From positions 96,001-160,000 of the forward strand of contig OZ253580.1 of assembly GCA_965263035.1 (NCBI GenBank): a DNA stretch of 64,000 nucleotides, written 5' to 3'. How positions within the stretch are numbered: position 1 is the first letter of the stretch; every line of letters starts with the position of its first letter. The translations under genes and the position numbers were made by a program. The notes below the pieces were generated by a model. The model saw nothing but the letters and a program-made list of their open reading frames with translations, was not told the origin of the DNA and searched no databases. Shown piece after piece: positions 43,284-58,854 of the stretch. Source of the DNA: Acidobacteriota bacterium (GTDB lineage: Bacteria > Acidobacteriota > UBA6911 > RPQK01 > JAJDTT01).

Positions 43284-44268
43284 CTAGACCGAAGTTCCAG
43301 CCACGAAGACAAGATAACCCCTTGATTATAAAGGGATCAGTCACGAATCCGCCTTGGTCGTCACTGGGAACGCTGTGACCAACTCCAGAGCCCGTCGTTG
43401 CAGCCTCGGACCGTCCGGGGCCGAGGCGGTTCGGCACTGGTGACGGGCACGTGTTCCCATCTCCGCCATCAGCGTGTGGAAGCTCTGGATCGGCAGTCCG
43501 TCCTCGGTTCGCCGCTCCGTCTTCTTCCGTTTGGCCGATGCCGACGGCTGGGCTTTCAGCACTGGATCCCGTCGAGCGCGGTGCGCGTCCAGGTCCTCGT
43601 CATCGAACAGCAACGGGGCCAGGGCCCGGCGCAAATGCCCCTCCACATAGTAGGACAGCAGGCACAGGAACAGGTGCGACCGCACCCGCGCCTCCGCCCG
43701 GTGACGGATGGGACGGATCTGCAAGTCCACGGTCTTCAGAGAGCGGAAGGCTCGCTCCACGTGCGTCAGGTTCTTGTAGCTGCGCACCACATCGGCGGTC
43801 GGCAGCCGCTCTTCCGGTTCGCTGGTGCGGATGATGTAGAAGCCGTCCAGTTGCGCCTCCCGGGCGACGGCTGCGGTGCGCCGGGCGTACTCGAAGCGCC
43901 CGTCTTCGATCACCAGCTCAAAGTGCTTGGCCACTTTGTACCGGTTCTTGACCCGACCCACCTTCTCGGCGATCTGGGGCGCCAGCAGAGGCGTCTGGGT
44001 GCGCCGGGCCACCTCCCGGGCGATCTTGCCCAGCTCCTCTTCCGTGGCCGCCACCAGGTTCTCGCGTTTGCGGCGCCGATACTCCCCCAGCAGCGGGTTG
44101 TGGCAGACGACGAGCCGTTCGCCCGGATAGGCCTCGGTCCGGATCTCCGCCAAGTGACGCTCGTCGAAGATCGAGAGCTGAACCGCTTTGGTTTCCACCA
44201 GTTCGCGGATCGCCGTATGCCGCAGGGCCGAGATCCAACCCAGTCCCGGATGGCGCTTCAGATGCTTG
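43284..44268 (-). pseudogene. IS1634-family transposase, 5'-truncated, with right end
   Basis: WISALR, YPGERLVVCHNP, DGFYIIRT, YKNL..VERAFRSLK..DL.IRPI.H motifs; terminus CTAGACCGAAGTTCC at 43284. Confidence 0.85.
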
Positions 44269-44352
44269 AAGGGGACTCTTTCGGATTCAGAGATCGGGTC
44301 TCCACGAATCTGAGACGGGTGTAGGTCCCAGATCCAGGGTCGTAGCTGAACA

Positions 44353-44381
44353 GGTCCATCCCCGCCTGTGCGGGGGAAACC
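44353..44381 (-). CRISPR. Solitary type I-E-like CRISPR repeat (copy 1)
   Basis: Reverse complement GGTTTCCCCCGCACAGGCGGGGATGGACC: 29 nt, CCCCGC/GCGGGG stem, 4-nt loop and ATGGACC handle, matching type I-E repeat architecture. No array or cas genes in the window. Confidence 0.7.
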
Positions 44382-44999
44382 GATCCGGTTCTGGTGGAAC
44401 CGTTTTGGCCCGATCTTTGCCGCCGAGCTCCGCAAGAAACGGACAGGTCGAATGCGTGCGTTGTCGGCTTGGCGGTGGCACCTTGATGAGGTGTTCGTGA
44501 AAATCAATGGCGAACGCCATTACCTGTGGCGTGCCGTGGACCAGGAAGGCGAGGTGCTGGAGGCCTTTGTCTCGAAGAAGAGAGACCGCAAGGCCGCTTT
44601 GAAATTCCTCAGGAAACTGAGGAAGCGCTACCCCCCCAGGCCGGATGCGATCATCACGGATCGGCTGAGGTCTTACCGCGCGGCCTTGCGTGAACTGGGC
44701 GGATCCAGTCTGCATCAAGCTGGCCGATGGCTGAACAATCGTGCGGAGAATTCCCCCCTGCCGTTCCGGCGGCGAGAACACGCGAGGCTCCGTTTCAGGC
44801 GGATGCGAAGCCTCCAGAATTTTACCACCGTCCATTCTTCCGCCTACAACCACTTCAACCTGCGACGACCTCTCTGTTCACGGGACACTTTCAAGCTCAA
44901 CCGCGCCGCTGCACTTGCCCAGTGGCGTCAACTCGGGGCGGCCTAATTCCCTGTCCCCGGTGGAATAACTCAGACCTGCGATTTTACTCTGACAGTGCC
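44382..44999 (+). mobile_element. IS6-family element, 5'-truncated
   Basis: RFWWNRFGP, WHLDEVFVKINGE.HYLWRAVD, TDRLRSY and LNNRAENS motifs, stop at 44946; right IR ...TGACAGTGCC ends at 44999. Confidence 0.88.
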
Positions 45000-45107
45000 T
45001 TGCCGACTGGTCGGGAAGCAAAAGAGGCGGGTGCGTGGAACTCAAAGGATATTTTTGCAGCAATTTGGACAGTACCTTGAGCAGGCACTTCAGGCGGGCA
45101 TCCCCTC

Positions 45108-46376
45108 CTATCGATCACCCAAGGCTTCCGCCTGCCGTTCGAAGCTCTTATCGACCACTGCGGAACCAATCGAATCGCCGAAGACGTTCACCGCCGTCCT
45201 GAAACGATCTAGGAGCCAGTCGACCGACAGGATCAGCCCGATATATTCGACAGGTAATCCGACCGCGTTCAACACGATCACCATCGTGACCAGCCCGGCT
45301 TCGGGAATGCCCGCGGCTCCGATAGCCGCCATGGTAGCAGTGACGGCAATCACAAGCTGCGAGGTGATCGTGAGCTCAAACCCAATCGCCTGTGCGATGA
45401 ATATGGCAGCCGCGGCCTCATAGAGGGCGGTGCCATCCATATTGATCGTGGCACCCAAGGGAAGAACGAAATCGGAGGATTGTTTCGATACCTTGGCCTT
45501 TTCGACAGCACAATTCATCGTGATCGGCAGCGTTGCCGTTGAACTTGCAGTTGAAAAGGCCGTCAGTAGAGCCTGGGACATCTGGTACATGAAACGGAAC
45601 GGGTTCCTTCGGGTGAAGATCCACAGGATCAAGGGAAGCGTTAAAAATGCATGGACCCCCAGCCCGGCAAGGACCGTTCCAAAGTACGCTCCAGTCTGTT
45701 GCAGAACCGCTCCCAGATTTCCCCCAGCCTGGGCTTCACCAAAGCGGGCAGTCACCAGGCAGAAGATTCCGAACGGGGCCAGTTTCATCAGCAACAGGAT
45801 GAACGACAAGAGCGCTTCGTTGACTTGGACGATTATCTTGGTAAGCGCCTGGACTCGGGTGCCCATTGTCGTGAGCATTCCGGCAAAGATGATCGAGAAG
45901 AAAATCAGCGGTAGCAGGCTGGTCTTGGCTGCCGACTCGATCAGGTTGTCGGTAAAGAGCATCAGGACCAAGCCCCGAAGGATTGTTCCCAGGTCCGCAT
46001 CTTCCCGGCCAGCAGTGCTCACCTGACCCTCCGCGAGGCTCGCGTCCAGGGTCGTCTGGTCGACACCGACACCAGGTTGAATCAAATTCACCATAAGCAG
46101 ACCCACGATCACAGCCAGGACGGTTGTCATCAGGTAGTAGGTCACCGCAAAACCGCCGGGGCGGCCCAGTTTTCGAATGTCGCCGAGTCCAATGATGCCG
46201 CTCATCACGCTGGCCATCACCAGCGGAACGACCATCATCGTGAGCAGGTTGAGGAAGATCTCACCCCCAAGCTCGAACTGCATTGCAAATCCCGGAGCAA
46301 AAACAGCCAGGAGGATGGCCACAACAATCGCAACGGCGATGTACAAGGTCAGACGGCTCTTCGGTTTATCGGGCAT
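45108..46376 (-). CDS. Dicarboxylate/amino acid:cation symporter (DAACS, GltP/DctA family), copy 1
   Basis: AFSTASSTATLP, LPLGATINMDGTALYE, AAGIPEAG and DWLLDRFRTAVNV.GD motifs; start at MPDKPKSR. Confidence 0.95.
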   Translation of the reverse strand: MPDKPKSRLTLYIAVAIVVAILLAVFAPGFAMQFELGGEIFLNLLTMMVVPLVMASVMSGIIGLGDIRKLGRPGGFAVTYYLMTTVLAVIVGLLMVNLIQPGVGVDQTTLDASLAEGQVSTAGREDADLGTILRGLVLMLFTDNLIESAAKTSLLPLIFFSIIFAGMLTTMGTRVQALTKIIVQVNEALLSFILLLMKLAPFGIFCLVTARFGEAQAGGNLGAVLQQTGAYFGTVLAGLGVHAFLTLPLILWIFTRRNPFRFMYQMSQALLTAFSTASSTATLPITMNCAVEKAKVSKQSSDFVLPLGATINMDGTALYEAAAAIFIAQAIGFELTITSQLVIAVTATMAAIGAAGIPEAGLVTMVIVLNAVGLPVEYIGLILSVDWLLDRFRTAVNVFGDSIGSAVVDKSFERQAEALGDR

Positions 46377-46762
46377 TGTGTAACCTCTCCGAGTTCGATG
46401 CGACGACTCTGCTTTCGCTTGGCGGCGATGAACCATCATTATGCTCTTGCCAAGCCTGAAAAAACTAGCGAACGAGCATCGCTGCGTTCCGAGGACAAGA
46501 ATCGGCCCTCAAAGGCCGCTCAACGGCCCCGAGTGGTTCTTACTCTGGCAGCCGTGGGAAAATGGATAGGAGGAGGCTGTTAGTACTCTACTTAAAGTTC
46601 TGCCCTTCAGTATCGCGGACAAACTATTCGACGGCATCCGGCGGCAGATCGAGATCGACTTTCCAGCCCAGATCCGCCAATCTCAGAACGCCCGCCGCAT
46701 AGAAGAGAAAAGCAATGGTCAGGACGGCCAGCACCCGCATACCAGCCGATAGGCATCCAGTA

Positions 46763-46892
46763 GGTGCTGTCAAGTTAAGTAGAATTCTCGGGTTTTGGAG
46801 GCGAAATCGGCCGTAGGCCTAACGTAGAATCAACAACTTAGGGAGTGGCCAAGGCGCTGAGCAGGAACCAAATCGGTTAACTTGACGGTACC
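46763..46892. mobile_element. IS6-derived miniature element (130 bp)
   Basis: Ends GGTGCTGTCAAGTTAA and TTAACTTGACGGTACC form a 16-bp IR with 2 mismatches, similar to IS6 GGCACTGTCA ends; no ORF. Confidence 0.75.
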
Positions 46893-47079
46893 GCCGGTTC
46901 CTTTCGGCGGGTCGGCAATGTCCAGTCTACAGCATGGACTAAAGGTGCCGATCCAGCGCCATGTCGCGTCCTCATCCTCGTCGCTGTTCTCGTCGAGCAC
47001 CCGGGGCTCGGCCACCAACATCCGGTCGCCGGAGGACGTCCCCACTGCGTACGGAGTGAGGGGGGAAAAGCGACACCTC

Positions 47080-47715
47080 CTAAAACGTAGTCGGGTCGCC
47101 AACCGCGGTCGCGATTCCATCGAACGATGAGGGCACGGCAGGCCCCGCGCCCAGGCTGATTGTCGTCCCATCCAGAGGGGTTATGGCAATTTCGGCGCTT
47201 CTCGTGTGCCCAACCGGAACCGTGATTTCAGATACGCCGGTCGGCAGCATTCCCCCAGTCGCGCTGATCGTCGTCGTCATGTCGAACGGCGCACCTTCAG
47301 GAACCACGACCACCACTCGGTTCGTGTTGTGAACACGCTGGATCGTCATGGTGAAATTGAAGTCCGCGCCCGGATTCGTCTCCAGGTACAGGGCCTCCAG
47401 ACTGGTGAGACCCGAAAACACACCTGCGGGCAACGTCTGCAACCGGTTGTTTGCCAGGTCCAGCCACTCAACGTCAAGACTGGCGAAGACCCTGTCCTCC
47501 AGCGTCGCCAATTGGTTGTGTGACAGATCCAACGTCAGGCTACCGCTGAGTGAATCGAACATCCCGGCCGACAGTGTTCGGAGCTGATTCGCCTCCAGGC
47601 CGAGGAATCTGAGGTTTAGCCCGGCGAACAGCCCGGAGGGTAATGTGGTCAGGTTATTGTACTCCAGATCCAGAATGTCCATGCTGGCGAGACCGTCGAA
47701 CAAGTTGCCTGGCAA
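47080..47715 (-). pseudogene. Leucine-rich-repeat surface protein, 5'-truncated
   Basis: Several LxxLxLxxNxLxxLPxxxF repeats followed by VPEGAPFDMT; the upstream in-frame sequence is unrelated. Confidence 0.8.
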
Positions 47716-48115
47716 GGGCCGGCCAACTCCCGCATCCTGGCGTTTCGAGGCGGATGTGTGCATGCCGGGCGTGGACGGGCTTCGGATTCCATTATGGGAT
47801 TCAGTCTGCCTGTTGACGTGTGCCGTTGATGCGGCCCGTCCCTGGAAGGGCATGGGAACCTTGGAGGTTGCGGATCAAACCGGGCCCCTGTTCAGAGACT
47901 TGGAGAGTTCTCCAGCAAATGAGTCCTCAACTCCTACCGGATTCTTGCTCCCGGTTCCGCAGGGCGCGAATGCGGACTAGGAGGACGACCCACTGGCCGC
48001 CATGCAATCGGATCTTAAGTCCCTGGGCGGCGACTTGGCCCCAGTGGTGACGACGGCGGCGGGCTTTGGGGAGGGCCGGGGCGCGGTTCCTCAGAAGGAC
48101 TGGATACCGTCCAGG

Positions 48116-48282
48116 CTAGGAGCCTGCGCCGCAGAAATTGATCTACTGCGAAAGCGGTAGAATCGGTCCATATTTCCTCGATTTCTCGGCGAATAGAACA
48201 ACTATGCACCTCAAAATCGAGAAAATCTGGCCTCGATTCCCCACTTTCTCGCTACGATCATTTCTACCGCGCAGCCTCCTAG
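48116..48282 (+). mobile_element. MITE copy 2
   Basis: Differs from copy 1 at about 2 positions; shares its right CTAG with the adjacent IS1182. Confidence 0.9.
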
Positions 48283-50053
48283 GAGCCTGTCCGAGAATTC
48301 GGCATTGAGCGACCTTCACCCATAACCATGCTCAGGGGCAATGGTCCAAGGCTCCGAAGACCCTCGAATCCTGGCCTCCGAAGCCGAGGGAACCGATGGA
48401 TTGCTCTAATTCCGACGCGAAAAGAGGCTACAGAGGCCGATTTTTGACTTCATCCGCCCTTATCCGCCCCTTTCTTACGCCCAGGCCGCTCGCTTCCCGA
48501 ACTCCGGACACACCTCTCCCCGCAGAGCCGCAAGCATGATCTTTTTGAGATTGTGTGCCACGCAGACCAGCGAGAACTCCCCCGCCACTTTCGCCTTGCC
48601 CCGCAGCCCGAATCCTCGAAATCCCGAGTTCTTGATCTGCCCGAACACCGGCTCCACGATCGTCTTGCGACGCGCGTAGATCGCCTGGCTCTCCGGTTTC
48701 GACATCCGCTCGTTCATCGCCCGTCGCAACGGCTCCTTCCCGTCGCTCGTGATCGTGCGCGCCGCCCCTGACTTCGACCGGCAGCAACGACGATAGTAGG
48801 CACAGGATCGGCACTCATCGATGTCCCCCTGATACACCCGCTGTCCCGTGCCGCGGGTGGTCTTCAACCTCAGCAGTTGGCCACCGGGACAATGAAAGCC
48901 GTCCTGCTCCTCGTCGTAACGAAAGTCCGCTTTCACCAAGTAACGCTTGCTCGCGTCCAGGTCCCCCTTCCCCCGCTTCTCTCCCCGGTCCGTCGCGATG
49001 TAGGCTTCCACCTTCCGATCCGACGTCTCCTGCAGGTTCTTCCCCGAGTAGTACCCGTTGTCCAAACTCAGCTTCTCCGGCAACCGACCGCTCGTCTCCT
49101 CCACCTCATCCAAGGCTGGAGCCACTTCCTGGGCATCGTTCGCCTGCTGGCTCACGTGCTGACCCACGATCACCTGCGACTTGCCGTCCACGCTGATCTG
49201 TGCGTTGTACGCGTACTCGAAGTCCCCTTTTTGCTTCATGATCCGCGCCTCGGGGTCCGCAAAGCTGATCTGCTTCTTGTCCTCGATCGCCTGACCCGGT
49301 CGAAGCTCCTGCTCCCGCGCTTCCAGCAGCTGCTTCATCTCCCGGACCTTCTTCAACCGCTGCTTCTTGTCGCGCAGGTCATCGGGCAGCTCATACCCGG
49401 TCCGCTCCTGGTAGACCCGATCCTCTTCCTCGTCGCAGCGGTCCGCCTGCCGGGTCAAGGCTTCGATCTCCTCGCACAATTCCTGCTCCTTCTCCTTCAG
49501 CCGTCCGTAACTCATCGCCTTGTGCTTCGAGCTGTTCGCCTTGAACTTGGACCCGTCCAGGCTCACGTGGCCCAAACTCACCAGCCCCAGCCCCATCGCC
49601 AGTTGCACCGTCTGCTTGAAGCAGGACCGGAAGAATTCCCCGTGGTCCTTCCGGAAATCGCTCAACACCCGGAAGTTCGGGCAGTTCCTCCCCGCGATGT
49701 ACATGAACCCCAGATCCTCCCGGCAGCGCTGCTCGATCTGCCGGGAGCTGAACACGCCGCGGCTGTAGGCGTAGATCAGGATCGACACGATCTGACGCGG
49801 CGCGTAGGCGCGCTGGCCCCGGTCGCTGTACTGGGCCTCCACTTCCGACGTGTCCAGTTGCTCGAACAGTTCCTGATAGAGGAAACATTCGTGATCCTCC
49901 GGCAAGAGGTCGAACACGTTGGCCGGAAACAGCTGACTCTGGTAGTAGTCTTTCGGGTAGGCTTTGAATCGCGGGGGCATCCAACATTCTCCTGATGATC
50001 AGATGCCCTGATTTTAAGGAGCTTCGGTGACAGCCCCGTTCTCGGACAGCCTC
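48283..50053 (-). mobile_element. IS1182-family element, apparently intact
   Basis: TIR GAGCCTGTCCGAGAA / TTCTCGGACAGCCTC, flanked by CTAG on both sides. Confidence 0.92.
48475..49980 (-). CDS. IS1182-family transposase
   Basis: DUF772-type N-terminus (YAYSRGVFSSRQIE, PNFRVLSDFRK); LDGSKFKANSS, DPEARIM, YNAQ, DNGYYS and Y.RRK..VEPVFG.IK motifs. Confidence 0.95.
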   Translation of the reverse strand: MPPRFKAYPKDYYQSQLFPANVFDLLPEDHECFLYQELFEQLDTSEVEAQYSDRGQRAYAPRQIVSILIYAYSRGVFSSRQIEQRCREDLGFMYIAGRNCPNFRVLSDFRKDHGEFFRSCFKQTVQLAMGLGLVSLGHVSLDGSKFKANSSKHKAMSYGRLKEKEQELCEEIEALTRQADRCDEEEDRVYQERTGYELPDDLRDKKQRLKKVREMKQLLEAREQELRPGQAIEDKKQISFADPEARIMKQKGDFEYAYNAQISVDGKSQVIVGQHVSQQANDAQEVAPALDEVEETSGRLPEKLSLDNGYYSGKNLQETSDRKVEAYIATDRGEKRGKGDLDASKRYLVKADFRYDEEQDGFHCPGGQLLRLKTTRGTGQRVYQGDIDECRSCAYYRRCCRSKSGAARTITSDGKEPLRRAMNERMSKPESQAIYARRKTIVEPVFGQIKNSGFRGFGLRGKAKVAGEFSLVCVAHNLKKIMLAALRGEVCPEFGKRAAWA

Positions 50054-50315
50054 CTAGGACCGGCACTACCGGAGGGATTTTGTATGCTTCGAGAGGACCT
50101 GGGCCGGTCGGTCCTGGCGGCGTGCGGAACTCCTCCGAGTTTGTATCTCGATGCAGACGGGGTGCCTTAAAGGGAGGCAATGAGGCGCTGGCCACGTCGG
50201 GGCCTCTGGCAGGTGGATAGCCGAGCGCTCGGTATCACTTCTGTTATTTAAAGTGATAATATTTTTTCCGAACTCCTAAAATATTATTTATTTCTAGTGA
50301 TTTATAAAAATTGGA

Positions 50316-50405
<90 letters not shown>

Positions 50406-50489
50406 AATCCGGAAATATCAAGCCGTGAATTCTACTTCCTGAGTGGGTTCGGAACAAGGCCGCGTCCCGGCGGGGGCCCGGCCGAGGCC

Positions 50490-51338
50490 TTACCCGGAGA
50501 CAGGATTCGGCCAGTAGGCAGCCGCGGCGTTCTCTCCCATGACGGCGGCCAATTCCGCGGGATCCAGGTCGGTGTAGAAGCGTTCCTGGAGGCCCAAAGC
50601 GCTGGCGTAGCTGCACTTGAGCAGGACGTGAGGGAAGTCGCTTCCCCAGACCAGGCGGTCCGTACCGAAGGCCTCATGGAAAGCCTTGAAGAACGGATGG
50701 CAGTCCGAGTACGGCCAACCCTGGCGGGAGTGGTAGTAGTAGCCGCTGACCTTCACCGAAATCTGGGGAAACCGGCTCAGATCCAGCAGGTCCCGGAATA
50801 ACGGATCGCCGGTTCCGGCCGTCACGTCGGGATAGGCCATGTGATCGATGAGGAGAGGGACCTGGGGAAACCGTTCCGCCAACCCGGCCAGAGCCGGAAC
50901 GTGCTCCATCCTCATGAGCAGGTTGACGGCGATTCCCAGATCCTGGGCCGCTTCCCAGACCGGATACGAAGCGGGCCGGCCAAAGGTCACTTCCTCTCCG
51001 GGAACGCTGGGACGGATTCTCAATCCCCGGCAACCCCGTTCCCGGACCCAGTAGCGGAGACGCCGGTCCGCGCCCTCCCGCCGTGGGTCCACATAGCACA
51101 CGGCCGCCAGGCGTTCCGGATCACGGGCGGCGCAGTCGGCTACGTAGGAGTTGTCCTCGCCCGGGTAGAGGGGTTGCACCACGACGGCCCGGTCCACCCC
51201 GTGCTCGTCCATGTACTGCTTCAGCAGTTCCACGGGGACGTCCGAGGTCGGACTGACGATGGTGGCGCCGGGATTGGGATGATCGGGAGCCGAGCGCCAG
51301 ACGTGAAGATGCGCGTCTACAATTATTCGTGTTTCCAA
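50490..51338 (-). CDS. Amidohydrolase_2 family protein (lactonase-like)
   Basis: IVDAHLHVW, LIDHMA, VKVSG and RLVWGSDFP motifs. Confidence 0.88.
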   Translation of the reverse strand: METRIIVDAHLHVWRSAPDHPNPGATIVSPTSDVPVELLKQYMDEHGVDRAVVVQPLYPGEDNSYVADCAARDPERLAAVCYVDPRREGADRRLRYWVRERGCRGLRIRPSVPGEEVTFGRPASYPVWEAAQDLGIAVNLLMRMEHVPALAGLAERFPQVPLLIDHMAYPDVTAGTGDPLFRDLLDLSRFPQISVKVSGYYYHSRQGWPYSDCHPFFKAFHEAFGTDRLVWGSDFPHVLLKCSYASALGLQERFYTDLDPAELAAVMGENAAAAYWPNPVSG

Positions 51339-51369
51339 CGGTGGTCATGGACGGGGAGCGGCCTCGGCC

Positions 51370-52653
51370 TCATCTCCCGCCCGTCTTCTCCAAGGTCCAG
51401 AATACTCCCGCGACGACCCCTTTGAGGTGGTCCGGGACCGACTTGATGTGCTCGTAGTGGTAGACGGCCGTCATGAAGCGTCCCGGAGAAATCTCGATGG
51501 TCGGGGACGTGAACCCCGCCACGGGAGCCAGCAGAAACTTCTTGGACCCGTTCATGAGCGGGGTCCCGGAGCGGGTGCCGTTGACCCAGGTCTGTCCGCC
51601 GTCCAGGCTGATCCGCGCCGCCCTGCGCGTATTCCCACTGTGTCCCCAGGCGTGGGTCACCACCACGACGTTGCTGGGTGTCCAATCGACCGTCCCGCGG
51701 TGACCGTACCATTCGGTCATTCCGCCGGGCGCCAACTGGAAAGTCCGGCCGGCGTCCTTGGATTCGAAGAGCGCCCCCTGCTTGTAGTAGTGCATGGGGT
51801 TCCCCGTCTCCATCATCATCTTGGCGCCGTCCTCTTCGGGCCGGCCCAAGCGCTGGATCCGGGTCATGATCAGAACATGGTCCGGGTCGCCGGGTCCGAT
51901 GGCCAGCGTCGACTCGTGGGCGTTCAGGTCGGTGTAGACGCGGGCGGGTTCCCCCCAGGTCACTCCGCCGTCGGTGGAGCGCAAGACCACGTCCCCGAAA
52001 TAGTCCTCCGATGTGCCGCCGTACATGAAGTTGGGAGGACTCACCGGATCGGTGGGCGGATGTTTTTTCTTGTAGTCCTCGCTTGGCACGACGGTCGTGT
52101 TGAACAAGAGGGTCCCGTCCGGCTGCTCGATGACGGCCCGATTTCCATCCTCGTGGAACTTGATGTTGGGCGTCCCCGCCCCGAACTTGGTGAAATCGGT
52201 TTCAGAGGCGGTCCAGGTCTTGCCGCCATCGTCCGAGTAGGAGACAAACAGGTCCTGGCCGTAGAGGCGCAGCTCCTTCTGGTTCGGCGGATGCTCCCCG
52301 CTGGTCTGGTGGACCAGGAAGATCCTTCCTTTTCGGTTCACGCCCATTCCCTGCACCACCTGGTGGGGCCGGCCGAGTTCCGCCGGCGAGGAGGTCCAGG
52401 TCTCGCCATTGTCGGCGCTCGAGTACAGGACGGGCGGATCGGTCTGGAGCGCCAGGTAGATGGTCCCGTCCGGATGCCGCGCCATGGCCATCATCGCCCG
52501 TTTGGAGGCGCCCGCGGGGACGATGGTCACCAGCCGGTCGATTTTGACCGTCACCCGGTGATCCATCCCTTCTTTCTCTGTCTCCTGGGTTGCTTCCTGG
52601 CAGGCAGGAGAGATCAGCAAGAACAACGTCAGCCAGATCGGGATTTGTTTCAT
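51370..52653 (-). CDS. BNR/Asp-box (sialidase-like) beta-propeller, probable lipoprotein
   Basis: Asp-boxes SADNGETW, SDDGGKTW, STDGGVTW, SKDAGRTF and SLDGGQTW; leader MKQIPIWLTLFLLISPAC. Confidence 0.85.
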   Translation of the reverse strand: MKQIPIWLTLFLLISPACQEATQETEKEGMDHRVTVKIDRLVTIVPAGASKRAMMAMARHPDGTIYLALQTDPPVLYSSADNGETWTSSPAELGRPHQVVQGMGVNRKGRIFLVHQTSGEHPPNQKELRLYGQDLFVSYSDDGGKTWTASETDFTKFGAGTPNIKFHEDGNRAVIEQPDGTLLFNTTVVPSEDYKKKHPPTDPVSPPNFMYGGTSEDYFGDVVLRSTDGGVTWGEPARVYTDLNAHESTLAIGPGDPDHVLIMTRIQRLGRPEEDGAKMMMETGNPMHYYKQGALFESKDAGRTFQLAPGGMTEWYGHRGTVDWTPSNVVVVTHAWGHSGNTRRAARISLDGGQTWVNGTRSGTPLMNGSKKFLLAPVAGFTSPTIEISPGRFMTAVYHYEHIKSVPDHLKGVVAGVFWTLEKTGGR

Positions 52654-52850
52654 AATTTTTCGTTCTCCCAGAGCGGACATGGTGGTAGCGGCGATGGAAG
52701 ATCCGCGAATTGAATAACTTCCGCGCCGTCGACCGGAATAAGAAATCCAGAACGTTGGTCTATTGTCAACGCGACCGCAGCACGCCGTCAAGGAACGGTC
52801 CCTGGGTTATCTGCCCGATACACTCTGCCTCACCCTGCCTCACCGGGAAT

Positions 52851-53567
52851 TCACTTCCTGCTGACAAAGAGCACGCGGCTCGCTTCTTCGATTCCGTGGT
52901 TGCGGTCAAGGGATATACAAGAGACATCCGTCAAGCCGCTCCGTTCGAACGCCCGGACAACCGTGGAAACGGGATGCCAGGTCTGTAACAGATGAACAGT
53001 GTCGGGGCGAACCCGATCCGGGGATGATGTCGTCGCCCGGAACTCCGCCAGCCGAGTGTCCTCATCATATGACGCCGACACAACAGTTGTCATTCCCGGA
53101 TCGCGGATCGTCCGCGTGCCGGACCACGTCGTCCGATACATGATCGCAGTGTTGAGATCGAAGGCAAATGCGCCTCCTGGAGCGAGGCAACTTGAAACGT
53201 TGAGGAGTGCCGACTCGAGATCGTCCAACGTCAGCAGATGATTGAGGCTGTCGTACAGCGAGAAGGCGGCATCGAACTTGCGAGACAGGAAAAACGATCG
53301 GATATCCGCACAGATGAACTCACAACCGGGAGCGTTCACGGCCGCATGCCGGAGCATTTCGAAGGAGGCGTCGACACCAACAACCCGAAAGCCCTCTGCG
53401 CTCAGCTTCCGGGAAAACTGTCCGGTGCCACAGCAGGCATCCAGGATGGTGCTGCCGGGATCGAGCTTCCGCAATACAAGGCGCTCCATTTGCGGGAACC
53501 AGCCGAGGGAGGCCTCACCCCAGTGCCTGTTGTAGACGGCGGCGAATTTGTCGTACTTGGAAAGCAT
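52851..53567 (-). CDS. Class I SAM-dependent methyltransferase
   Basis: ILDACCGTG, GVDASFEML, DSLNHL and LAPGGAFAFD motifs. Confidence 0.9.
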   Translation of the reverse strand: MLSKYDKFAAVYNRHWGEASLGWFPQMERLVLRKLDPGSTILDACCGTGQFSRKLSAEGFRVVGVDASFEMLRHAAVNAPGCEFICADIRSFFLSRKFDAAFSLYDSLNHLLTLDDLESALLNVSSCLAPGGAFAFDLNTAIMYRTTWSGTRTIRDPGMTTVVSASYDEDTRLAEFRATTSSPDRVRPDTVHLLQTWHPVSTVVRAFERSGLTDVSCISLDRNHGIEEASRVLFVSRK

Positions 53568-53696
53568 GACTTTTACGGGTTAGAAGTTTCGTGGAACCGG
53601 CAGCGGCCCCGGCCCTCATTTCTCACCGTGAAATGCGATGATCACACTGGGTGGTGTCTTCGGTGTGCGCTCGCGAAAGCAAGCACGAAATGGGCT

Positions 53697-53710
53697 TGGC
53701 GGAGGAGGTG
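53697..53710 (-). other. Probable att core (tRNA-Ser-like 3' end) of a second integrative element
   Basis: TGGCGGAGGAGGTG reverse-complements to CACCTCCTCCGCCA, a tRNA 3'-end-like sequence, about 145 bp upstream of the integrase. Confidence 0.55.
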
Positions 53711-53854
53711 ACCCCTACCGGGAGGTTTTTTACGGTTTCAGGGAGTCTCACAAAGTCCACCTATCCCAAATCATTACTGGTATTTAGGGGTTCTTGACGT
53801 TTCACTCCGTTTCGGTTAGTCGCAGTACGATAGCGATACTGTAGGGAATACCGA

Positions 53855-55027
53855 ATGAAGAGACCACGGATACTGTCTGCGGCTTTTATCCGGAATGTCA
53901 ATCGGCCTGGACGCTATGGCGACGGGCGCGGTGGGCATGGATTGAGCCTTCTCGTCAAGCGTACCGCAAACGGGCGACTCTCGAAAACCTGGGCGCTGCG
54001 GCTCCGAAAGCATGGCAAACCGTTCAACGTCGGGTTGGGCATCTACCCGCTTGTGACGCTGGCCGAAGCTCGACAGGCTGCACTCGCCAACCGGCGGGCT
54101 TTGGTGCAAGGCCACGACCCGCGGGGTGGCGGCATTCCGACATTCGAGCAAGCCGCCGAAAAGGTCATCCGAATCCATGCGGCGACGTGGACGCCCGGCG
54201 GCAAATCTGAGGTGCAATGGCGGGCAAGTCTTCGCGACTACGCCATGCCGATACTCGGCCACATCCGGCTGGACAAGATCACGACGGCTGACGTGCTAGC
54301 CGTGCTCCTCCCAATCTGGAACGAGAAGCGGGAGACGGCTCGACGGGTGCGGCAACGCATCGGCGCCATCATGAAATGGGCGGTGGCTCAGAACTACCGT
54401 CAAGACAATCCAGCCGGGGAAGCCATCGGCGCCGCTCTGCCGAAAAACGGCGTTCATCGCCAGCACCACAAGGCGCTCCCGCATGGTGAAGTCGGGGCCG
54501 CAATTCAGAAGGTTCGACAGTCGGGCGCCTACCGGGCCACGGTGCTCGCGTTCGAGTTCATTGTGCTGACGGCTTGCCGCTCCGGTGAGGTTCGGGGCGC
54601 CCGGTGGAAGGAAGTGGACCTTTCGACGGCGACTTGGACCATACCGGGCAAGCGAATGAAAACTAGGCGGGAGCACCGGGTTCCATTGTCGAAACGGGCC
54701 CTGCAAATTCTGAACGAGGCGCTGGCATTCGCGGACGGTTCCGGGCTGGTGTTTCCGTCTCTGACCGGACGGACCTTGAGTGATTCGACGATTTCCAAGC
54801 TACTCAGAGAAATCGGTATCCCGGCGGTGCCGCATGGCTTCCGGTCCAGTTTCCGCGACTGGTGCGGCGACAACGGGACGGCGCGAGAAGTCGCGGAAGC
54901 GTGCCTAGCGCACACCGTCAAGGGTGTTGAAGGTGCATATTTTCGGAGTGACCTCTACGCGCGGCGGGCAATTCTTATGGAGAAATGGGCGCAGTATCAA
55001 TGTATGGAACTCAGTAAGACTCTATGA
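53855..55027 (+). CDS. P4-like tyrosine integrase (arm DNA-binding domain)
   Basis: GRYGDG...GL.L.V, GLG.YP.VTLAEAR, TACRSGEVRGA.W.E, K..REHRVPLS, PHGFRSSFRDW and LAH....E.AY.RSD; catalytic residues intact. Confidence 0.95.
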   Translation: MKRPRILSAAFIRNVNRPGRYGDGRGGHGLSLLVKRTANGRLSKTWALRLRKHGKPFNVGLGIYPLVTLAEARQAALANRRALVQGHDPRGGGIPTFEQAAEKVIRIHAATWTPGGKSEVQWRASLRDYAMPILGHIRLDKITTADVLAVLLPIWNEKRETARRVRQRIGAIMKWAVAQNYRQDNPAGEAIGAALPKNGVHRQHHKALPHGEVGAAIQKVRQSGAYRATVLAFEFIVLTACRSGEVRGARWKEVDLSTATWTIPGKRMKTRREHRVPLSKRALQILNEALAFADGSGLVFPSLTGRTLSDSTISKLLREIGIPAVPHGFRSSFRDWCGDNGTAREVAEACLAHTVKGVEGAYFRSDLYARRAILMEKWAQYQCMELSKTL

Positions 55028-55172
55028 TATAATTACCGAGATTCGTTTTTAAATCGATGTTCTAGATCCGTGTCAAGGCAAGGGAAATAGACACGAATCA
55101 ACGGGCACTCTAGAACTCGAAAGAGCCATTCCGTCTTATAGGCAAGATGGCTTCACGAGAAGGAGTGCTAAA

Positions 55173-55566
55173 GTGTACATCGAACCTCAGATTCTCCGCA
55201 TCCACGAAATTTGCCGAGTTGTCGGTCTGAGCAAGCCGACCGTTTACCGCGAGATGAAGCGGGGCACATTTCCGCCGCCGATTCGACTAGGAGTCTGCGC
55301 GGTAGGAATGATCGTAGCGAGAAAGCGGGGAATCGAGGCCAGATTTTCTCGATTTGGAGGTGCATAGTCGTTCTATTCGCCGAGAAATCGGGGAAATATG
55401 GACTGATTCTACCGCTTTCGCAGTAGATTAATTTCTGCCGCGCAGGCTCCTAGGCAAGCGGGCCGTCGGCTGGCGGCGGTCTGATATCCAAGAGTGGCTT
55501 GACTCCAGGCCATCGTCAACCAGCGAGAGTCGGGGCTGTGCCGATGAATGTAGTTCAGTTTCCTGA
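55173..55566 (+). pseudogene. alpA: AlpA-family regulator/excisionase disrupted by MITE copy 3
   Basis: ILRIHEICRVVGLSKPTVYREMKRGTFPPPIRL|GKRAVGWRRSDIQEWLDSR is restored in frame when the MITE and one CTAG are removed. Confidence 0.9.
55287..55453 (-). mobile_element. MITE copy 3 (inverted)
   Basis: Reverse complement of copies 1 and 2 with several substitutions; CTAG duplicated. Confidence 0.9.
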
Positions 55567-55694
55567 ACCGGACCTGTTCGGCTCTCTGGACATTCCCCCC
55601 GAACCGCAGAATCGCAACGAACGGAATCATTTTTCGTTTGCGCGGGCTTTCGTTGCTCAGCATCCAGAGGACCGCCGCTTCGATTCGACTATAG
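55544..55694 (+). pseudogene. Truncated ORF after alpA, possibly a primase/helicase N-terminus
   Basis: MNVVQFPEPDLF...NHFSFARAFVAQHPEDRRFD overlaps the alpA end and is cut by an IS; position fits int-alpA-rep satellite order. Confidence 0.3.
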
Positions 55695-56766
55695 CGGCCC
55701 GTGGTGAAAGTCCGGAAACGTCAACCCGGTCATATGAAATTGTGTTATGGCCATGGGAAAGAAACCGTCTGGAGGACCGCAGCGGAAGATGTGGGTGCCG
55801 ACGGAGAAACTGCCGCGCAGCCCGGGACATCCGTTCTACGAGCGGTTGAACCGAGTGCGGGAGAAAGCCGGCTTTGACGGCTTCGTGGAAGGCTTGTGCG
55901 CGGTTTTACGCGGAGCGGTTGGGTCGACCGAGTCTGCGGCCGGGAAGGTACTTTCGGATGCTGCTGATCGGGTACTTCGAAGGCCTGGACTCGGAGCGGG
56001 CCATCGGCTGGCGGGTGGCCGATTCGATGAGTGTGCGGGCCTTTCTGGAATACGATCCGGAGGAGGCGGTGGACCTGGAGACGGGGGCGGTGGTGGCGGT
56101 GACGGTACAAGGGGCGGAAGCGGGCGACACGAAGACGATGGACAAGACGTTGCGGATGGCCCGGGAGGAGGTGTCGGCGGTCCAGCCGGGGGCCGAGGTG
56201 AGGAAAGTGGTGGCCGACAAGGGATACACAGTACGAAAATCGCGTTGGAATTGAAGCAACAGGGATTTCGCAAGTACGTGTCCGAACCGGAGCGGAAGGG
56301 ACGACGACGCTGGAAGGGGCGGGTGGACGCCCAACGGGCCGTCTACGGCAACCGGCGGCGCCTTCGTGGCGTGCGCGGCCGGCGATTGCAGCGCCAGCGG
56401 AGCGAACGGGTGGAACGACCGTTTGCCCACAGGCGCGAGACCGGAGGGCTGCGCCGGATCTTCGCTCGGGGCCATCCCAATATGCGCAAACGACTGCTGG
56501 TGCACGTGTGCGGATTCAATCTGGGCCTCTTGATGCGCCAGCTGACCGGTTTCGGGACGCCCCGCAGCCTACAGGGACGCACGGTGGCATCTATTGGAGC
56601 GCAATTGGCTTGGTGGAGCGGCTTGGAGCGTTTGCTGAAGCGCTGCTGCGCGTCGATCCGCCCCGATCCGTCGATAGTCGCGTCCCAAATCCATCGTTAC
56701 ACTATCTGAACGTCAACGTTCGAATAGAACATTAACGCGCAAAATCAAGCCTTTTGCCACGGGCTG
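55695..56766 (+). mobile_element. Internally deleted IS1182/IS5-like (DUF772) element
   Basis: IR CGGCCCGTGGTGAAAG / CTTTTGCCACGGGCTG flanked by ATAG and CTAG. Transposase remnant 55747-56709 (LPRSPGHPFYERLN, YFEGLDSERAI.WR.ADS, VVADKGY, VERPFAH..ETGGLRR) has frameshifts and lacks its centre. Confidence 0.8.
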
Positions 56767-56840
56767 CTAGGAGCAATCGATTCCCATGTCTCAGAAAAAG
56801 CGTTTTTCCATACTATATTGAAAAGCATTGAAGCACCTAT

Positions 56841-58836
56841 CCCAGATTATTCATCATACAAACATAAAATGGGAAAGCGTTCCCGCCATGTCGAGTCGGA
56901 TCAGAGGGTTACGGGATACCCACAGAAAAAGGTCGAGAGCCGCCGTGGGTGAAACGCTATCGTGGTTTTCGACTCCGCCTTAATCTTTGGGTTCAGAGGG
57001 GTCCGAAACCCATGCATTTCCAAGGTTTTCTCCCCTTCCAGGGGCGGCATAAAGAGACGGCGTGCCCGTCATTTGTGGTATGATTATAGTGCTAAGAAAC
57101 AACCACAAAGAACGGAGCACGCCATGCCTGAGACGATACCGCAGATCCGGCCCTCATTCAACCGATCCCTCCGCCTCGAGACCCGCCCCGAGTTGCTCAG
57201 TGCGGACACGGGAGCCCTGGTGCAACGGGAGCTGATGGAGCGCAGCGGCCTCATCGATTGGTTGACCGAGCGGTTGCACGATCCGCGACACCCGAGTTCG
57301 ATCCGCTATCCGCTGTCGGATCTGCTGCGGACTCGACTCCTGCTGCTGGGGCAGGGCTGGCGCGACCAGTCCGACGCCGACCGCCTGCGTCAGGATCCGA
57401 GCTTGCGGGTGGCGAGCCAGACCCGTCGGGGCACGGCGGCCTTGGAGGAGGGCCACGGGCTGGCGTCGCAGCCGACCTTGTCCCGACTGCTGGACACGCT
57501 CAGCCGGGAGGAGAACCTTCCGGTCCTGCACCAGGCGGTGACGGAGCTGGCGTGCCGTCGGATCGAGATGATCGAAGGCCGGCGGCGAAAACGGGGGGAA
57601 AAGACCCCACGGAAGAAGAGACGGAAAAAGACGATGGTCCTGGACGTGGACGGTCTCCCGGTCGAGGTCCATGGGCATCCCCCGGGAAGCGAATGGAACG
57701 GATATTATCGCCAAAGGATGTACCACGGGTTGGTGGCGAGTTGTGCCGAGACGGGGGACCTGATCGACGGGGAGATTTATCCGGGGGCCAGCTACCTGGG
57801 GAAGCAGGCGCTGAAGTTGACGCTACGGGTGGTGGACCGCTGTCGCGGGCGCCTGTGCGGCTCGATGATCGTGCGGATGGATGCGGGGTTCCCGGAGCCG
57901 GGGCTGCTGAAGGGGCTGGAGTCGAGAAGCGTGCCCTATATCGCTCGAATCCGCAAGAATGAGGTCCTGAACCGGATGGCGAAGCCCTACTTGACCCAAC
58001 CGGCGGGGCGATCCCCGGATGCACCACCGAGGCTCTGGTTCCATGAGCTGACCTATCAGGCGGAGAGTTGGGATCGGGCGCGCCGGGTGGTGCTGGTGGT
58101 GCGGGAGCGACTGGGGGAGTTGTATCCGGATCATTTCTGGTTGCTGACGAGCCTGAGCCGGAAACGATACCAGGCTCAGGAGTTGCTGGCACAGTATCGA
58201 AAGCGGGGGAAGGCGGAAGGCCACATGGGGGAGTTGATGGACGTGCTCGATCCGGCCTTGTCCTCCGCGAGCCGGCCCAAGACGCACTATCGGGGCCAAC
58301 CGCTGAAGCCGGGAGCGAAGCCGGAAGCGACGACGGAGGCCGGGGTTCGACCCCACAACGAAGTCTTGTTCCTGCTGAATCTGCTGGGGTACGAGATCCT
58401 GCACCTGGGTCGGGTGCTGATGGAGCAGGCGACGCGTCGGGGCTGGAGTCTGCGTCGTTTTCGCGAGCGGGTGTTGCGAGTGGCATCTCGGGCGCTACGT
58501 CAGGGGAGGCGATTGATTTTCGTCATCAGTCAAGGGGCGACAGACTGGAAGCGGTTGTGGCAGAGCCTGGCGCGGGTGTCCTGGGCGCCGGGATAGGGGA
58601 CGGAGGAGAAATCGGGCCCGTGGAAGGGACCGAAACGGTGGGGATTTCTGGCCGGAAAGTCAACCTGTCGGCGGGTGACGGTCCCCCTGGCCGGTAAATG
58701 GTTTATGACTGGTTCAATCGTCCTGTTTTTGAGCCGATTCAGTCGAATCGACAGAGGTTCAAGAGAAACCGGGCTGCGACCGCACGAAAACGCCGGGTTG
58801 GAAGCCCTTATCAACATGTCCCATGAATAATCTGGG
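56841..58836 (+). mobile_element. IS1380-family element, complete, with 5-bp TSD
   Basis: Perfect 14-bp IR CCCAGATTATTCAT / ATGAATAATCTGGG; CCTAT duplicated at 56836-56840 and 58837-58841. Confidence 0.95.
57124..58596 (+). CDS. IS1380-family transposase
   Basis: LSADTGAL, DPR, LASQPTLSRL, LDVD, VRMDAGF and Y.KRG.AE motifs; start MPETIPQ at 57124 with GGAG RBS. Confidence 0.92.
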   Translation: MPETIPQIRPSFNRSLRLETRPELLSADTGALVQRELMERSGLIDWLTERLHDPRHPSSIRYPLSDLLRTRLLLLGQGWRDQSDADRLRQDPSLRVASQTRRGTAALEEGHGLASQPTLSRLLDTLSREENLPVLHQAVTELACRRIEMIEGRRRKRGEKTPRKKRRKKTMVLDVDGLPVEVHGHPPGSEWNGYYRQRMYHGLVASCAETGDLIDGEIYPGASYLGKQALKLTLRVVDRCRGRLCGSMIVRMDAGFPEPGLLKGLESRSVPYIARIRKNEVLNRMAKPYLTQPAGRSPDAPPRLWFHELTYQAESWDRARRVVLVVRERLGELYPDHFWLLTSLSRKRYQAQELLAQYRKRGKAEGHMGELMDVLDPALSSASRPKTHYRGQPLKPGAKPEATTEAGVRPHNEVLFLLNLLGYEILHLGRVLMEQATRRGWSLRRFRERVLRVASRALRQGRRLIFVISQGATDWKRLWQSLARVSWAPG

Positions 58837-58854
58837 CCTATTGATTTGACGCCA

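What the first reader, a model, noticed from the sequence alone, without database searches (positions are those of the whole stretch)
44353..44381. Solitary type I-E CRISPR repeat is the exact breakpoint of a duplicated mobile cassette
Seen: both copies of the 2.33-kb duplication begin precisely with the 29-nt repeat, and the sequences on its spacer side are unrelated between copies. On the other side the repeat end GAAACCG runs straight into the middle of an IS6 transposase (where ETIRFWW would be). No cas genes are in the window. Inference, several options: recombination between CRISPR repeats moved the cassette; the repeat is a solitary repeat unit acting as an RNA anti-CRISPR (Racr), as known on mobile elements; or it is debris from an array eroded by deletion.
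Basis: partly seen in the sequence, partly recalled or inferred. Interest (0 to 1): 0.75.

Follow-up and report, generated by a model that had tools for sequence, protein, structure and literature searches.

The report
Orphan CRISPR repeats bounding a duplication
Two lone copies of the host's own CRISPR repeat sit in a transposon-littered island, each fused exactly at its edge to a broken insertion sequence; they look like leftovers of decayed CRISPR arrays that served as recombination points, not a working device.

Summary
A 2,329-bp direct duplication (44353-46681 = 59561-61889, 7 differences) starts in both copies with the same unit. The unit is 28 nt, not 29. It is a genuine type I-E repeat: the same genome has a 16-repeat array with 33-nt spacers beside a full I-E cas operon about 2 Mb away. 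The transcribed strand is minus.

Copy 2 keeps the 60 nt that flank the far end of the main array, so it is the last repeat of a collapsed array without cas genes. Full-length IS6 copies in related genomes show that IS6 homology starts at 44381, the first base after the repeat; about 198 nt of the IS6 5' end are missing.

A relative carries the same IS6-transporter module and reads straight across the right duplication boundary. So copy 1's right junction is native. Copy 2 is cut there by an IS3-like element with no target duplication.

Best reading: these are relics of eroded orphan arrays. One repeat became fused to IS6. An exchange between two repeats 15,208 bp apart then duplicated the segment, and an IS3-linked deletion trimmed the second copy.

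I found no promoter, terminator or acr-like context for an RNA anti-CRISPR, and expression could not be tested. Interest is moderate.

The parts
44353..44380 (-). Solitary type I-E CRISPR repeat, copy 1. It reads GTTTCCCCCGCACAGGCGGGGATGGACC on the minus strand.
   Evidence: Identical to the canonical repeat of the host array. The orientation follows from the cas operon direction and from colinearity with the E. coli K-12 repeat. The hairpin is predicted.
59561..59588 (-). Solitary type I-E CRISPR repeat, copy 2. It has one change, C>T at 59588.
59497..59560 (-). Distal flank ('trailer') of a CRISPR array. It contains the right half of a genome-wide palindrome and a degenerate repeat-like hairpin.
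   Evidence: 59497-59556 is 96.7% identical to the 60 nt left of the main array at G000 2107992-2108051. The same flank lies beside the array of G002 and beside a single repeat in G007. The fold of the main array's copy of this flank has z = -3.4.
44381..44999 (+). IS6-family element lacking its first ~198 nt (left inverted repeat and transposase N-terminus), copy 1.
   Evidence: Pfam DDE_Tnp_IS240, E 3.9e-39. 88-93% identity to multi-copy full-length elements in 7 genomes of the same order, with homology starting at 44381. The right inverted repeat ...CTCTGACAGTGCC ends at 44999.
59589..60207 (+). The same truncated IS6, copy 2.
45108..46439 (-). Sodium:dicarboxylate symporter family gene, copy 1 (443 aa).
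   Evidence: Pfam SDF, E 3.2e-115. 95-96% DNA identity to a segment next to IS6 in G020 and G012.
60316..61845 (-). The same symporter gene, copy 2. The open frame is longer (509 aa) and the Pfam domain covers residues 96-497.
46682..46762 (.). Native continuation of the IS6-symporter module beyond the duplication boundary. It is present only after copy 1.
   Evidence: G020 reads contiguously ...gatccgccaat|ctcagaacgcc... up to the equivalent of window 46762.
46763..46892 (.). A ~130-nt multi-copy miniature element with terminal inverted repeats.
   Evidence: Many copies at 82-92% identity in G029, G024, G012, G009, G026 and others. The sequence is shown.
61889..63155 (+). Degenerate IS3-family element that cuts copy 2. 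Its ends are TGACCTTGCCCCC... and ...GGGGGCAGGTCA, and it has no target-site duplication.
   Evidence: Sequence. Pfam rve and rve_3 on L043:1659-2126. The flanks CAA and GGA differ. It is single-copy in the genome.
43285..44269 (-). IS element of the DDE_Tnp_1 type ('ISx'), truncated at 44269. Other copies continue for at least 140 nt more.
   Evidence: Pfam hit. Multi-copy in all 8 of 8 other genomes of the genus. Flank comparison.
44270..44352 (.). 83-nt orphan sequence between the truncated ISx and repeat copy 1.
   Evidence: No other match in the genome. No real match in 40 relatives. No exact match of its last 35 nt in metagenome contigs. No significant likeness to the trailer or the repeat.
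44353..59560 (.). One 15,208-bp unit of the inferred tandem duplication: repeat, IS6 remnant, symporter, 12.8 kb of island DNA, trailer.
   Evidence: Start-to-start spacing is 15,208. The inner part holds a tyrosine integrase (53855-55027), IS elements and metabolic genes.

Best explanation
The 28-nt units are single, orphan copies of the host's own type I-E CRISPR repeat. They are what remains of small arrays without cas genes that decayed inside an IS-ridden genomic island. They most likely have no present function.

Shown:
- The repeat is that of a real array with a full I-E cas operon.
- Copy 2 still carries the array's distal flank.
- The IS6-symporter module is a horizontally spread unit. 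Its native sequence continues past the duplication's right boundary after copy 1.
- Copy 2 is cut at that point by an IS3-like element with no target duplication.
- IS6 homology begins at the first base after the repeat.

Inferred order of events:
1. An IS6-symporter module lay about 13 kb from the trailer side of one orphan repeat (the copy-2 site). A second orphan repeat lay just to the module's left (the copy-1 site).
2. A deletion fused that second repeat, at its spacer-side border, to an internal point of IS6. An exact border is what recombination between an IS6-derived spacer and its own target would leave. Chance or Cas1-Cas2 chemistry are alternatives.
3. An unequal homologous exchange between the two directly oriented repeats, 15,208 bp apart, duplicated the unit repeat-IS6-symporter-island-trailer in tandem. 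This is why the duplication starts exactly at the repeat edge.
4. An IS3-linked deletion removed the rest of the second unit.
For: Identity of the repeat:
- 16 repeats with 33-nt spacers lie at G000 2108055-2108999.
- Next to them are Cas2 (CT1978 type), Cas1, Cas6e, Cas5, Cas7 and Cas3, plus two ORFs of Cse2 and Cse1 size.
- The repeat is colinear with the E. coli K-12 I-E repeat when read in the cas direction.

Relic status:
- 58 of the 60 nt left of copy 2 match the main array's distal flank.
- The same flank lies next to G002's array and next to a lone repeat in G007.
- A third lone, degenerate repeat and two half repeats sit beside the same palindrome elsewhere in the genome. That makes 5 of 26 palindrome loci with a repeat-like unit.

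Exact border: in 5 of 5 full-length IS6 loci read in the right orientation, the element continues upstream with ...CACGAGA, where the window has the repeat. The missing 5' part is nowhere else in the genome.

Native right junction of copy 1: G020 is 95% identical over window 45055-46762, 81 nt past the boundary.

IS3 without target duplication.

Erosion around copy 1: ISx is truncated at 44269.

Background: array erosion and recombination within or between arrays are described in the abstracts of PMC4524480 and bioRxiv 10.1101/2022.05.19.492656.
Against: - The 83 nt left of copy 1 look like no trailer, repeat or known sequence. That a second array once ended there is assumed, not shown.
- No relative or other sample shows an intact array at either site.
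- No spacer matching IS6 was found. I tested 15 G000 spacers plus 81 spacer strings from G002, G007 and G034, one array being entered on both strands.
- The position where a PAM would lie reads AGA, with AAG one base further out. This is not the usual I-E AAG in register, and the PAM of this system could not be determined.
- A 28-bp homology is near the lower limit for RecA-type exchange over 15 kb.
- Short-read unitigs break at the repeat, so no independent read bridges the left junctions.
Confidence: 0.55

Rival explanations
1. RNA anti-CRISPR (Racr). The lone repeat is kept by a mobile island, is transcribed, binds Cas6e/Cas7 of the host's I-E system and blunts immunity against the island.
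For: The unit is solitary, matches the host's own subtype and sits in an island with a tyrosine integrase and many IS elements. These are traits listed for solitary repeat units in passages of PMC10651486. The symporter gene is on the same strand upstream, and no terminator-like site lies between them. Read-through could therefore produce the repeat in the sense that Cas6e recognises; this is inference.
Against: - No sigma-70-like promoter lies within about 800 nt on either strand at either copy.
- Copy 2 carries an array trailer, which marks it as array debris.
- The junction is absent from the genome and metagenome collections, and the exact repeat occurs in only one other species genome, there inside a normal array.
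- No phage or plasmid genes and no acr/aca candidates were seen among the ORFs scanned.
- Copy 2 has a mutated last base.
Confidence: 0.08
2. Cas1-Cas2 chemistry made the borders. The integrase joined the 3' ends of long DNA (a broken IS6 end at the leader-side border, another end at the far border) to a single repeat, so no second array and no IS6 spacer are needed.
For: Both edges of copy 1 and the IS6 edge of copy 2 fall exactly on the two phosphodiester bonds that the integrase attacks. That chemistry is established knowledge of I-E adaptation, recalled here. The junction is flush, with no unambiguous microhomology. The genome encodes Cas1 and Cas2.
Against: Integration of kilobase-long substrates is not known for I-E, whose Cas1-Cas2 measures 33-bp substrates (recalled). 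The orphan repeats have no leader; the leader next to cas2 has no counterpart here. The native junctions found already account for the duplication edges through ordinary homologous exchange.
Confidence: 0.12
3. Coincidence within generic illegitimate recombination. The island has undergone many untemplated deletions, and the repeat edges are breakpoints by chance or because the hairpin stalls replication.
For: Other unexplained joints lie within 100 nt: ISx is truncated at 44269 and an 83-nt orphan follows. The IS3-like element has no target duplication. The region is dense in IS elements.
Against: Three junctions fall to the base on the repeat's edges. These edges lie 7 and 5 nt outside the hairpin stem, so hairpin-base breakage does not predict them. 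For a random endpoint inside an array the chance is about 1 in 61 for each junction; this is my estimate.
Confidence: 0.15
4. Assembly artefact. The two copies or their left junctions are mis-joins at a repeated 28-mer.
For: Short-read unitigs of four public runs all stop at the repeat, so none bridges it.
Against: The copies differ at 7 sites. Both right-hand flanks, the IS3-like start and the native continuation, appear in unitigs of runs X1 and X3 from different studies. The left flank 58900-59526 is covered without differences in X1 and X3.
Confidence: 0.02

Closest known systems
Orphan or degenerate CRISPR arrays (arrays without adjacent cas genes, eroded by loss of spacers and repeats)
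   Same: The repeat is identical to that of a functional locus elsewhere in the genome. There are no cas genes nearby. Copy 2 keeps the array's distal flank. Degenerate relatives occur elsewhere in the genome.
   Different: Erosion has gone down to a single repeat. The side where the oldest spacer should be is occupied, flush with the repeat, by an internal IS6 sequence. One relic marks the edge of a 2.3-kb (originally 15.2-kb) duplication.
Solitary repeat units / RNA anti-CRISPRs (Racr; Camara-Wilpert et al. 2023, PMC10651486, passages read)
   Same: A single repeat not linked to other repeats or cas genes, matching the host's CRISPR subtype, in DNA rich in mobile elements.
   Different: It is not on a recognisable virus or plasmid. 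No predicted promoter lies directly upstream, no acr neighbour was seen, an array trailer is attached to copy 2, and expression is untested.
Spacer-target recombination between phages and CRISPR arrays
   Same: Homology between a spacer and its target would give exactly a repeat followed flush by target sequence, as seen at 44380|44381.
   Different: Here the partner would be a chromosomal IS6 and the outcome a deletion. No IS6 spacer has been found, and the PAM-side bases are not the usual AAG in register.
IS26/IS6-family translocatable units and composite transposons
   Same: An IS6-family element is linked to a cargo gene, and the unit is 95-96% identical in genomes of other families next to IS6 copies.
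   Different: Both copies in the window lack the left inverted repeat and the transposase N-terminus. No intact IS6 exists in this genome, so IS6 transposition cannot have made this duplication in its present form.

Membership tests
Type I-E CRISPR repeat | Same sequence as the repeats of an array that lies next to a type I-E cas operon | tested here: met
   Copy 1 equals the canonical repeat of the 16-repeat array at G000 2108055-2108999. Pfam finds Cas3 HD, Cas7 (CT1975), Cas5, Cas6e (CRISPR_assoc), Cas1 and Cas2 (CT1978) in the adjacent ORFs.
Type I-E CRISPR repeat | Architecture of I-E repeats: 5-nt 5' flank, 6-bp CCCCGC/GCGGGG stem, 4-nt loop, then a handle starting AT | tested here: met
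   Minus-strand reading GTTTC-CCCCGC-ACAG-GCGGGG-ATGGACC, against E. coli K-12 GAGTT-CCCCGC-GCCA-GCGGGG-ATAAACCG read from NC_000913.3. Rfam gives only a sub-threshold CRISPR-DR28 hit (20.2 bits against 35).
CRISPR array (at this site) | Two or more repeats at regular spacing separated by spacers | tested here: not met
   Only one repeat lies at each site, and there is none within 61 nt on either side.
Decayed array remnant (terminal repeat) | Flank homologous to the distal flank of a bona fide array with the same repeat | tested here: met
   Met for copy 2: 59497-59556 against 2107992-2108051, 96.7%, also in G002 and G007. Not met for copy 1, whose 83-nt flank matches nothing.
Solitary repeat unit / Racr | Solitary repeat, not associated with other repeats or cas genes | tested here: met
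Solitary repeat unit / Racr | Carried by a virus, provirus or plasmid | tested here: inconclusive
   The island has a tyrosine integrase, many IS elements and miniature elements. No phage or plasmid hallmark genes were found among the ORFs scanned. Not all ORFs were scanned.
Solitary repeat unit / Racr | Intergenic, directly downstream of a promoter, expressed as a small RNA | tested here: not met
   0 sigma-70-like promoters and 0 terminator-like sites in 44100-45200 and 59300-60400, both strands. The scan covers only the sigma-70 consensus. Expression itself is not testable with these tools, because the RNA runs available are assembled contigs.
Solitary repeat unit / Racr | Inhibits the matching CRISPR-Cas system | not testable with these tools
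   Needs an interference or plaque assay.
IS6 family insertion sequence | DDE transposase of the IS240/IS6 type flanked by terminal inverted repeats, about 0.8 kb | tested here: inconclusive
   The transposase domain is present (PF13610, E 3.9e-39), and the right inverted repeat is present at 44999. The left inverted repeat and about 198 nt are missing when compared with full copies that start GGCATTGTCAGAG.... It is a truncated member.

The most novel reading that the evidence does not exclude
The CRISPR system itself rewired the chromosome. An array acquired a spacer from a resident IS6 element, and the spacer recombined with its own target (or Cas1-Cas2 joined a broken IS6 end to the repeat). 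This deleted the rest of the array and half of the IS6. The surviving lone repeats then served as crossover points for a 15-kb duplication carrying a transporter gene. Flush repeat-edge fusions would then be a readable scar of CRISPR-driven genome rearrangement in nature.
Probability: 0.3. Interest if true: 0.65.

Novelty: new variant of a known kind. Interest (0 to 1): 0.4.

Why it matters
Lone CRISPR repeats are now often read as candidate RNA anti-CRISPRs. This case shows how the flanks can tell array debris from a dedicated gene: an array trailer on one side, native sequence of relatives on the other.

It is also a clean natural example of 28-nt CRISPR repeats marking, to the base, the ends of a large duplication and of a deletion into a mobile element. 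If the flush fusion to IS6 came from spacer-target recombination or from Cas1-Cas2, then CRISPR arrays would be shown to be not only records of invaders but also substrates that reshape the host chromosome and capture cargo genes.

Tried and rejected
- Searches for the repeat-IS6 junction in genome contigs and metagenome contigs gave 0 hits each. The last 35 nt of the left flank of copy 1 gave 0 hits in metagenome contigs.
- The exact repeat in genome contigs gave 1 record (OY764083.1, titled MAG: Acidobacteriota bacterium), where it forms a normal array.
- PAM determination failed.
  - The array was searched against 76 genomes of the order. 10 of 76 had any match, all of them other arrays or weak matches.
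  - Against phages there was 1 chance hit.
  - Against plasmids 14 records matched, nearly all through similar I-E repeats.
  - One 4-mismatch hit in G008 lies in an ordinary gene.
  - One G007 spacer matches G000 817475-817507 at 32 of 33 bases with CGC upstream. This is a single case from a different repeat type, so it was not used.
- No spacer of G000 matches its own genome outside the array.
- The 83-nt flank was tested as a trailer, a repeat or a spacer plus degenerate repeat. No likeness exceeded the shuffles.
- The flank of the third lone repeat has no significant likeness to the main leader.
- The idea that an element ending in the repeat had inserted into IS6 was dropped, because the IS6 5' part is nowhere in the genome.
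- Cas3-driven deletion was considered and set aside. Cas3 moves towards the PAM side (recalled), which is the side retained here.
- A ~33-nt match downstream of IS6 in several genomes turned out to be a shared short motif, not a spacer.
- Rfam at gathering threshold gave 0 hits on the array locus. At E up to 1 it gave only sub-threshold CRISPR-DR28 and engA hits.
- Sequencing runs were all assembled contigs, and the unitigs stop at the repeat. They show neither bridging of the left junctions nor expression. In X8 and X15 the IS6 at this point is intact (loose end CCACGAGA), so those samples hold other IS6 copies or organisms. Parts without cover are not used as evidence.
- Supplementary files of PMC10651486 (lists of solitary repeat units) were not opened. 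They might list I-E units of this kind.

Full report
**Observation.** A self-comparison of the window gives one long direct repeat, 44353-46681 = 59561-61889 (2,329 bp, 99.7%), with 7 differences. Both copies open with GGTCCATCCCCGCCTGTGCGGGGGAAA(C/T). The base before it differs between the copies (A and G), and the left flanks share nothing.

**What the unit is.** A mismatch-tolerant search of the whole 6.2-Mb genome finds the unit at three sites:
- the two window sites;
- a run of 16 copies at 2,108,055-2,108,999 with a constant 61-nt period, that is 28-nt repeats and 33-nt spacers.

Eleven of the 16 repeats are identical to copy 1. The first three, at the end far from cas, are variants.

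Immediately beyond the other end lie eight co-directional ORFs. Pfam names six of them:
- Cas2 (CT1978 type), Cas1, Cas6e (CRISPR_assoc), Cas5, Cas7 (CT1975) and Cas3 (HD plus helicase);
- the other two are unnamed ORFs of Cse2 and Cse1 size.

tblastn with these eight proteins finds no second set in the genome.

To fix the orientation I read the E. coli K-12 locus. There cas2 is followed by the leader and by GAGTTCCCCGCGCCAGCGGGGATAAACCG in the cas direction, with a degenerate last repeat. Read in its own cas direction (the minus strand here), the present repeat is GTTTC-CCCCGC-ACAG-GCGGGG-ATGGACC. It matches the E. coli repeat part for part. The window units are therefore genuine I-E repeats whose RNA sense is the minus strand. 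It follows that 44380|44381 is the side where spacers (or the leader) belong, and 44352|44353 is the distal side.

**Flank of copy 2.**
- The 60 nt left of copy 2 (59497-59556) are 96.7% identical to the 60 nt left of the main array.
- The same flank precedes the array of G002, a species of the same genus. Its cas1 and cas2 are 96-100% identical and none of its spacers is shared.
- In G007 this flank precedes a single degenerate repeat with no cas gene within 3.5 kb.

Copy 2 is thus the terminal repeat of a second CRISPR locus that has collapsed and has no cas genes.

The flank contains a repeat-like hairpin and the right half of a perfect palindrome, GTCCGTTAA-TTTCAG-TTAACGGAC. This palindrome occurs at 26 loci of the genome with up to 4 mismatches. 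At 5 of these 26 a repeat-like unit lies directly beside it:
- the main array;
- copy 2;
- a third lone, degenerate repeat near 5,660,582-5,660,617;
- two half repeats near 6,029,650 and 6,171,030.

Lone repeats are thus a recurrent kind of debris in this genome.

**The IS6 side.** ORF 44368-44946 carries the IS6/IS240 DDE domain (E 3.9e-39). The genome has no other copy of this element. In contrast, 7 genomes of the same order hold several copies each at 88-93% identity, and all their matches start at window position 44381-44383. In the 5 loci that I read in the right orientation, the element continues upstream for about 198 nt to an end GGCATTGTCAGAG... It reads ...GAGGTGAGCCACGAGA|CGATCCGGTTCTGGTGG where the window reads ...GCGGGGGAAAC|CGATCCGGTTCTGGTGG. 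Homology therefore starts at the first base after the 28-nt repeat, with no shared bases across the joint. An alternative alignment (GAAAC to GAGAC plus one extra C) is less economical. The missing 5' part is nowhere in the genome. The right inverted repeat ends at 44999.

**The cargo and the right boundary.** The rest of the duplicated segment is a sodium:dicarboxylate symporter gene on the minus strand (E 3e-115) and its upstream region. In G020 (another family of the order) and G012, a full IS6 is followed by the same segment at 95-96% identity. In G020 the match runs to window 46762, 81 nt beyond the duplication boundary, and reads straight through ...gatccgccaat|ctcagaacgcc.... So the right junction of copy 1 is the native sequence.

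Copy 2 is interrupted at that point by an IS3-family element (61889-63155). Its ends are TGACCTTGCCCCC... and ...GGGGGCAGGTCA, it has degenerate reading frames, and it carries Pfam rve and rve_3. Its flanks (CAA, GGA) show no target duplication, which indicates that the element took part in a rearrangement after it inserted. To its right, ordinary chromosomal genes begin: a nitroreductase-family protein, GroEL and DnaX.

**The left side of copy 1.** The DDE_Tnp_1 element to the left is multi-copy in all 8 other genomes of the genus. In the window it stops at 44269, whereas every other copy compared (7 of 7) goes on for at least 140 nt. Between it and the repeat lie 83 nt. This stretch matches nothing:
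- not in the genome;
- not in 40 relatives;
- its last 35 nt not in metagenome contigs;
- it does not resemble the trailer or the repeat.

**Reconstruction (inference).** Three contiguities are native:
- IS6-symporter into 46682-46762 (G020);
- the sequence up to 59519 into the palindrome (G003);
- palindrome-trailer-repeat (main array, G002, G007).

The chain IS6-symporter-island-trailer-repeat is therefore probably ancestral. The novel joints are repeat|IS6 and 83 nt|repeat.

If a second orphan repeat already lay left of the IS6, only three ordinary events are needed:
1. A deletion fuses that repeat to an internal IS6 point.
2. An unequal exchange between the two direct repeats, 15,208 bp apart, gives a tandem duplication whose edge is by necessity the repeat edge.
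3. An IS3-linked deletion trims the second unit.

The flush repeat|IS6 joint is what recombination between an IS6-derived spacer and its target would leave, and such an event would also end any self-targeting. The bases on the PAM side read AGA, with AAG one base further out. The PAM of this system could not be established, and no IS6-matching spacer was found among the spacers available. Cas1-Cas2-catalysed joining and plain coincidence remain possible.

**Function.** No sigma-70-like promoter or intrinsic-terminator-like site lies within about 800 nt of either copy on either strand. The unit would be transcribed in the Cas6e-recognised sense only by read-through from the symporter gene.

The features given for solitary repeat units and RNA anti-CRISPRs in PMC10651486 (passages) are: carriage by viruses or plasmids, a promoter directly upstream, acr neighbours and small-RNA expression. 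Here they are not met or could not be tested. The island does hold a tyrosine integrase.

Public runs hold the stretch, but they are assembled contigs whose unitigs end at the repeat. They support both right-hand contexts in two independent studies (X1, X3). They say nothing about expression or about the left joints.

**Novelty and limits.** Array erosion and recombination within or between arrays are known (abstracts of PMC4524480 and bioRxiv 10.1101/2022.05.19.492656). My searches listed no paper describing a lone repeat flush-fused to an insertion sequence and bounding a duplication. This is a statement about those four listings only.

The second array at the copy-1 site, the order of events and the origin of the flush joint are all inferred. 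The organism is known to me only through the title of the one other record with the same repeat.

Noticed in passing
G000 C1 about 5,660,582-5,660,641 (outside the window; locus L036): A third lone, degenerate copy of the I-E repeat (GTCCAAAAGATCCCTGCCTGTGCGGGGGAAAC) lies directly beside the palindrome GTCCGTTAATTTCAGTTAACGGAC. Half repeats lie beside the same palindrome near 6,029,650 and 6,171,030.
   Followed up: partly
window 59491-59514; 26 loci genome-wide, e.g. G000 2107986, 5711530, 6163750: A perfect 9-bp-stem palindrome, often preceded by a conserved ~110-nt element (...TGATTCGCACCCCCC...CCCTTTTTCCAGAGAAC), occurs at 26 loci, many between 6.02 and 6.19 Mb. In 5 of the 26 it abuts a CRISPR-repeat-like unit. 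In G007 an ISx copy is inserted in one. In G003 the homologue of window 59401-59519 ends just after it. It may be a recombination or insertion hot spot. There is no Rfam match above threshold.
   Followed up: partly
window 48116-48287, 55287-55458, 8493-8664: A ~170-nt element is present about 170 times in the genome. The window's copies at 48116 and 55287 are inverted relative to each other and flank an 7-kb stretch that holds a tyrosine integrase gene (53855-55027).
   Followed up: no
window 20700-36000: Very long arrays of ~680-nt and ~2.3-5.7-kb imperfect direct repeats (60-88% identity), probably giant repetitive surface-protein genes.
   Followed up: no
L012/L031 (G002, OY764083.1) against G000 2,108,000-2,118,100: The CRISPR-Cas loci of two different species are near-identical: Cas1 is 100% identical over 140 aa, Cas2 96%, and the leader and trailer are the same. 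They share no spacer and lie in different chromosomal contexts, which suggests recent transfer of the whole locus.
   Followed up: partly
G000 817475-817507: A spacer of a different I-E array in G007 (repeat GTGTTCCCCGCCTACGCGGGGATGGACCG) matches this site of G000 at 32 of 33 bases. The upstream bases are CGC.
   Followed up: partly
run X15 laid on window 59557-59587 (table 5c): Contigs of a metatranscriptome library hold repeat-spacer-repeat units with this repeat but with spacers not present in G000. A relative with a different spacer set is therefore in that sample. The material comes from an RNA library, but DNA carry-over cannot be excluded.
   Followed up: no
window 45044-45076 (= 60252-60284): The short motif AAAGGATATTTTTGCAGCAAT, followed by CTGGGCGGTACCC in other genomes, recurs in G020, G012, G023 and G029. 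In G020 and G012 it directly abuts the IS6 right end. It may be the end of another small element or a preferred IS6 target.
   Followed up: partly
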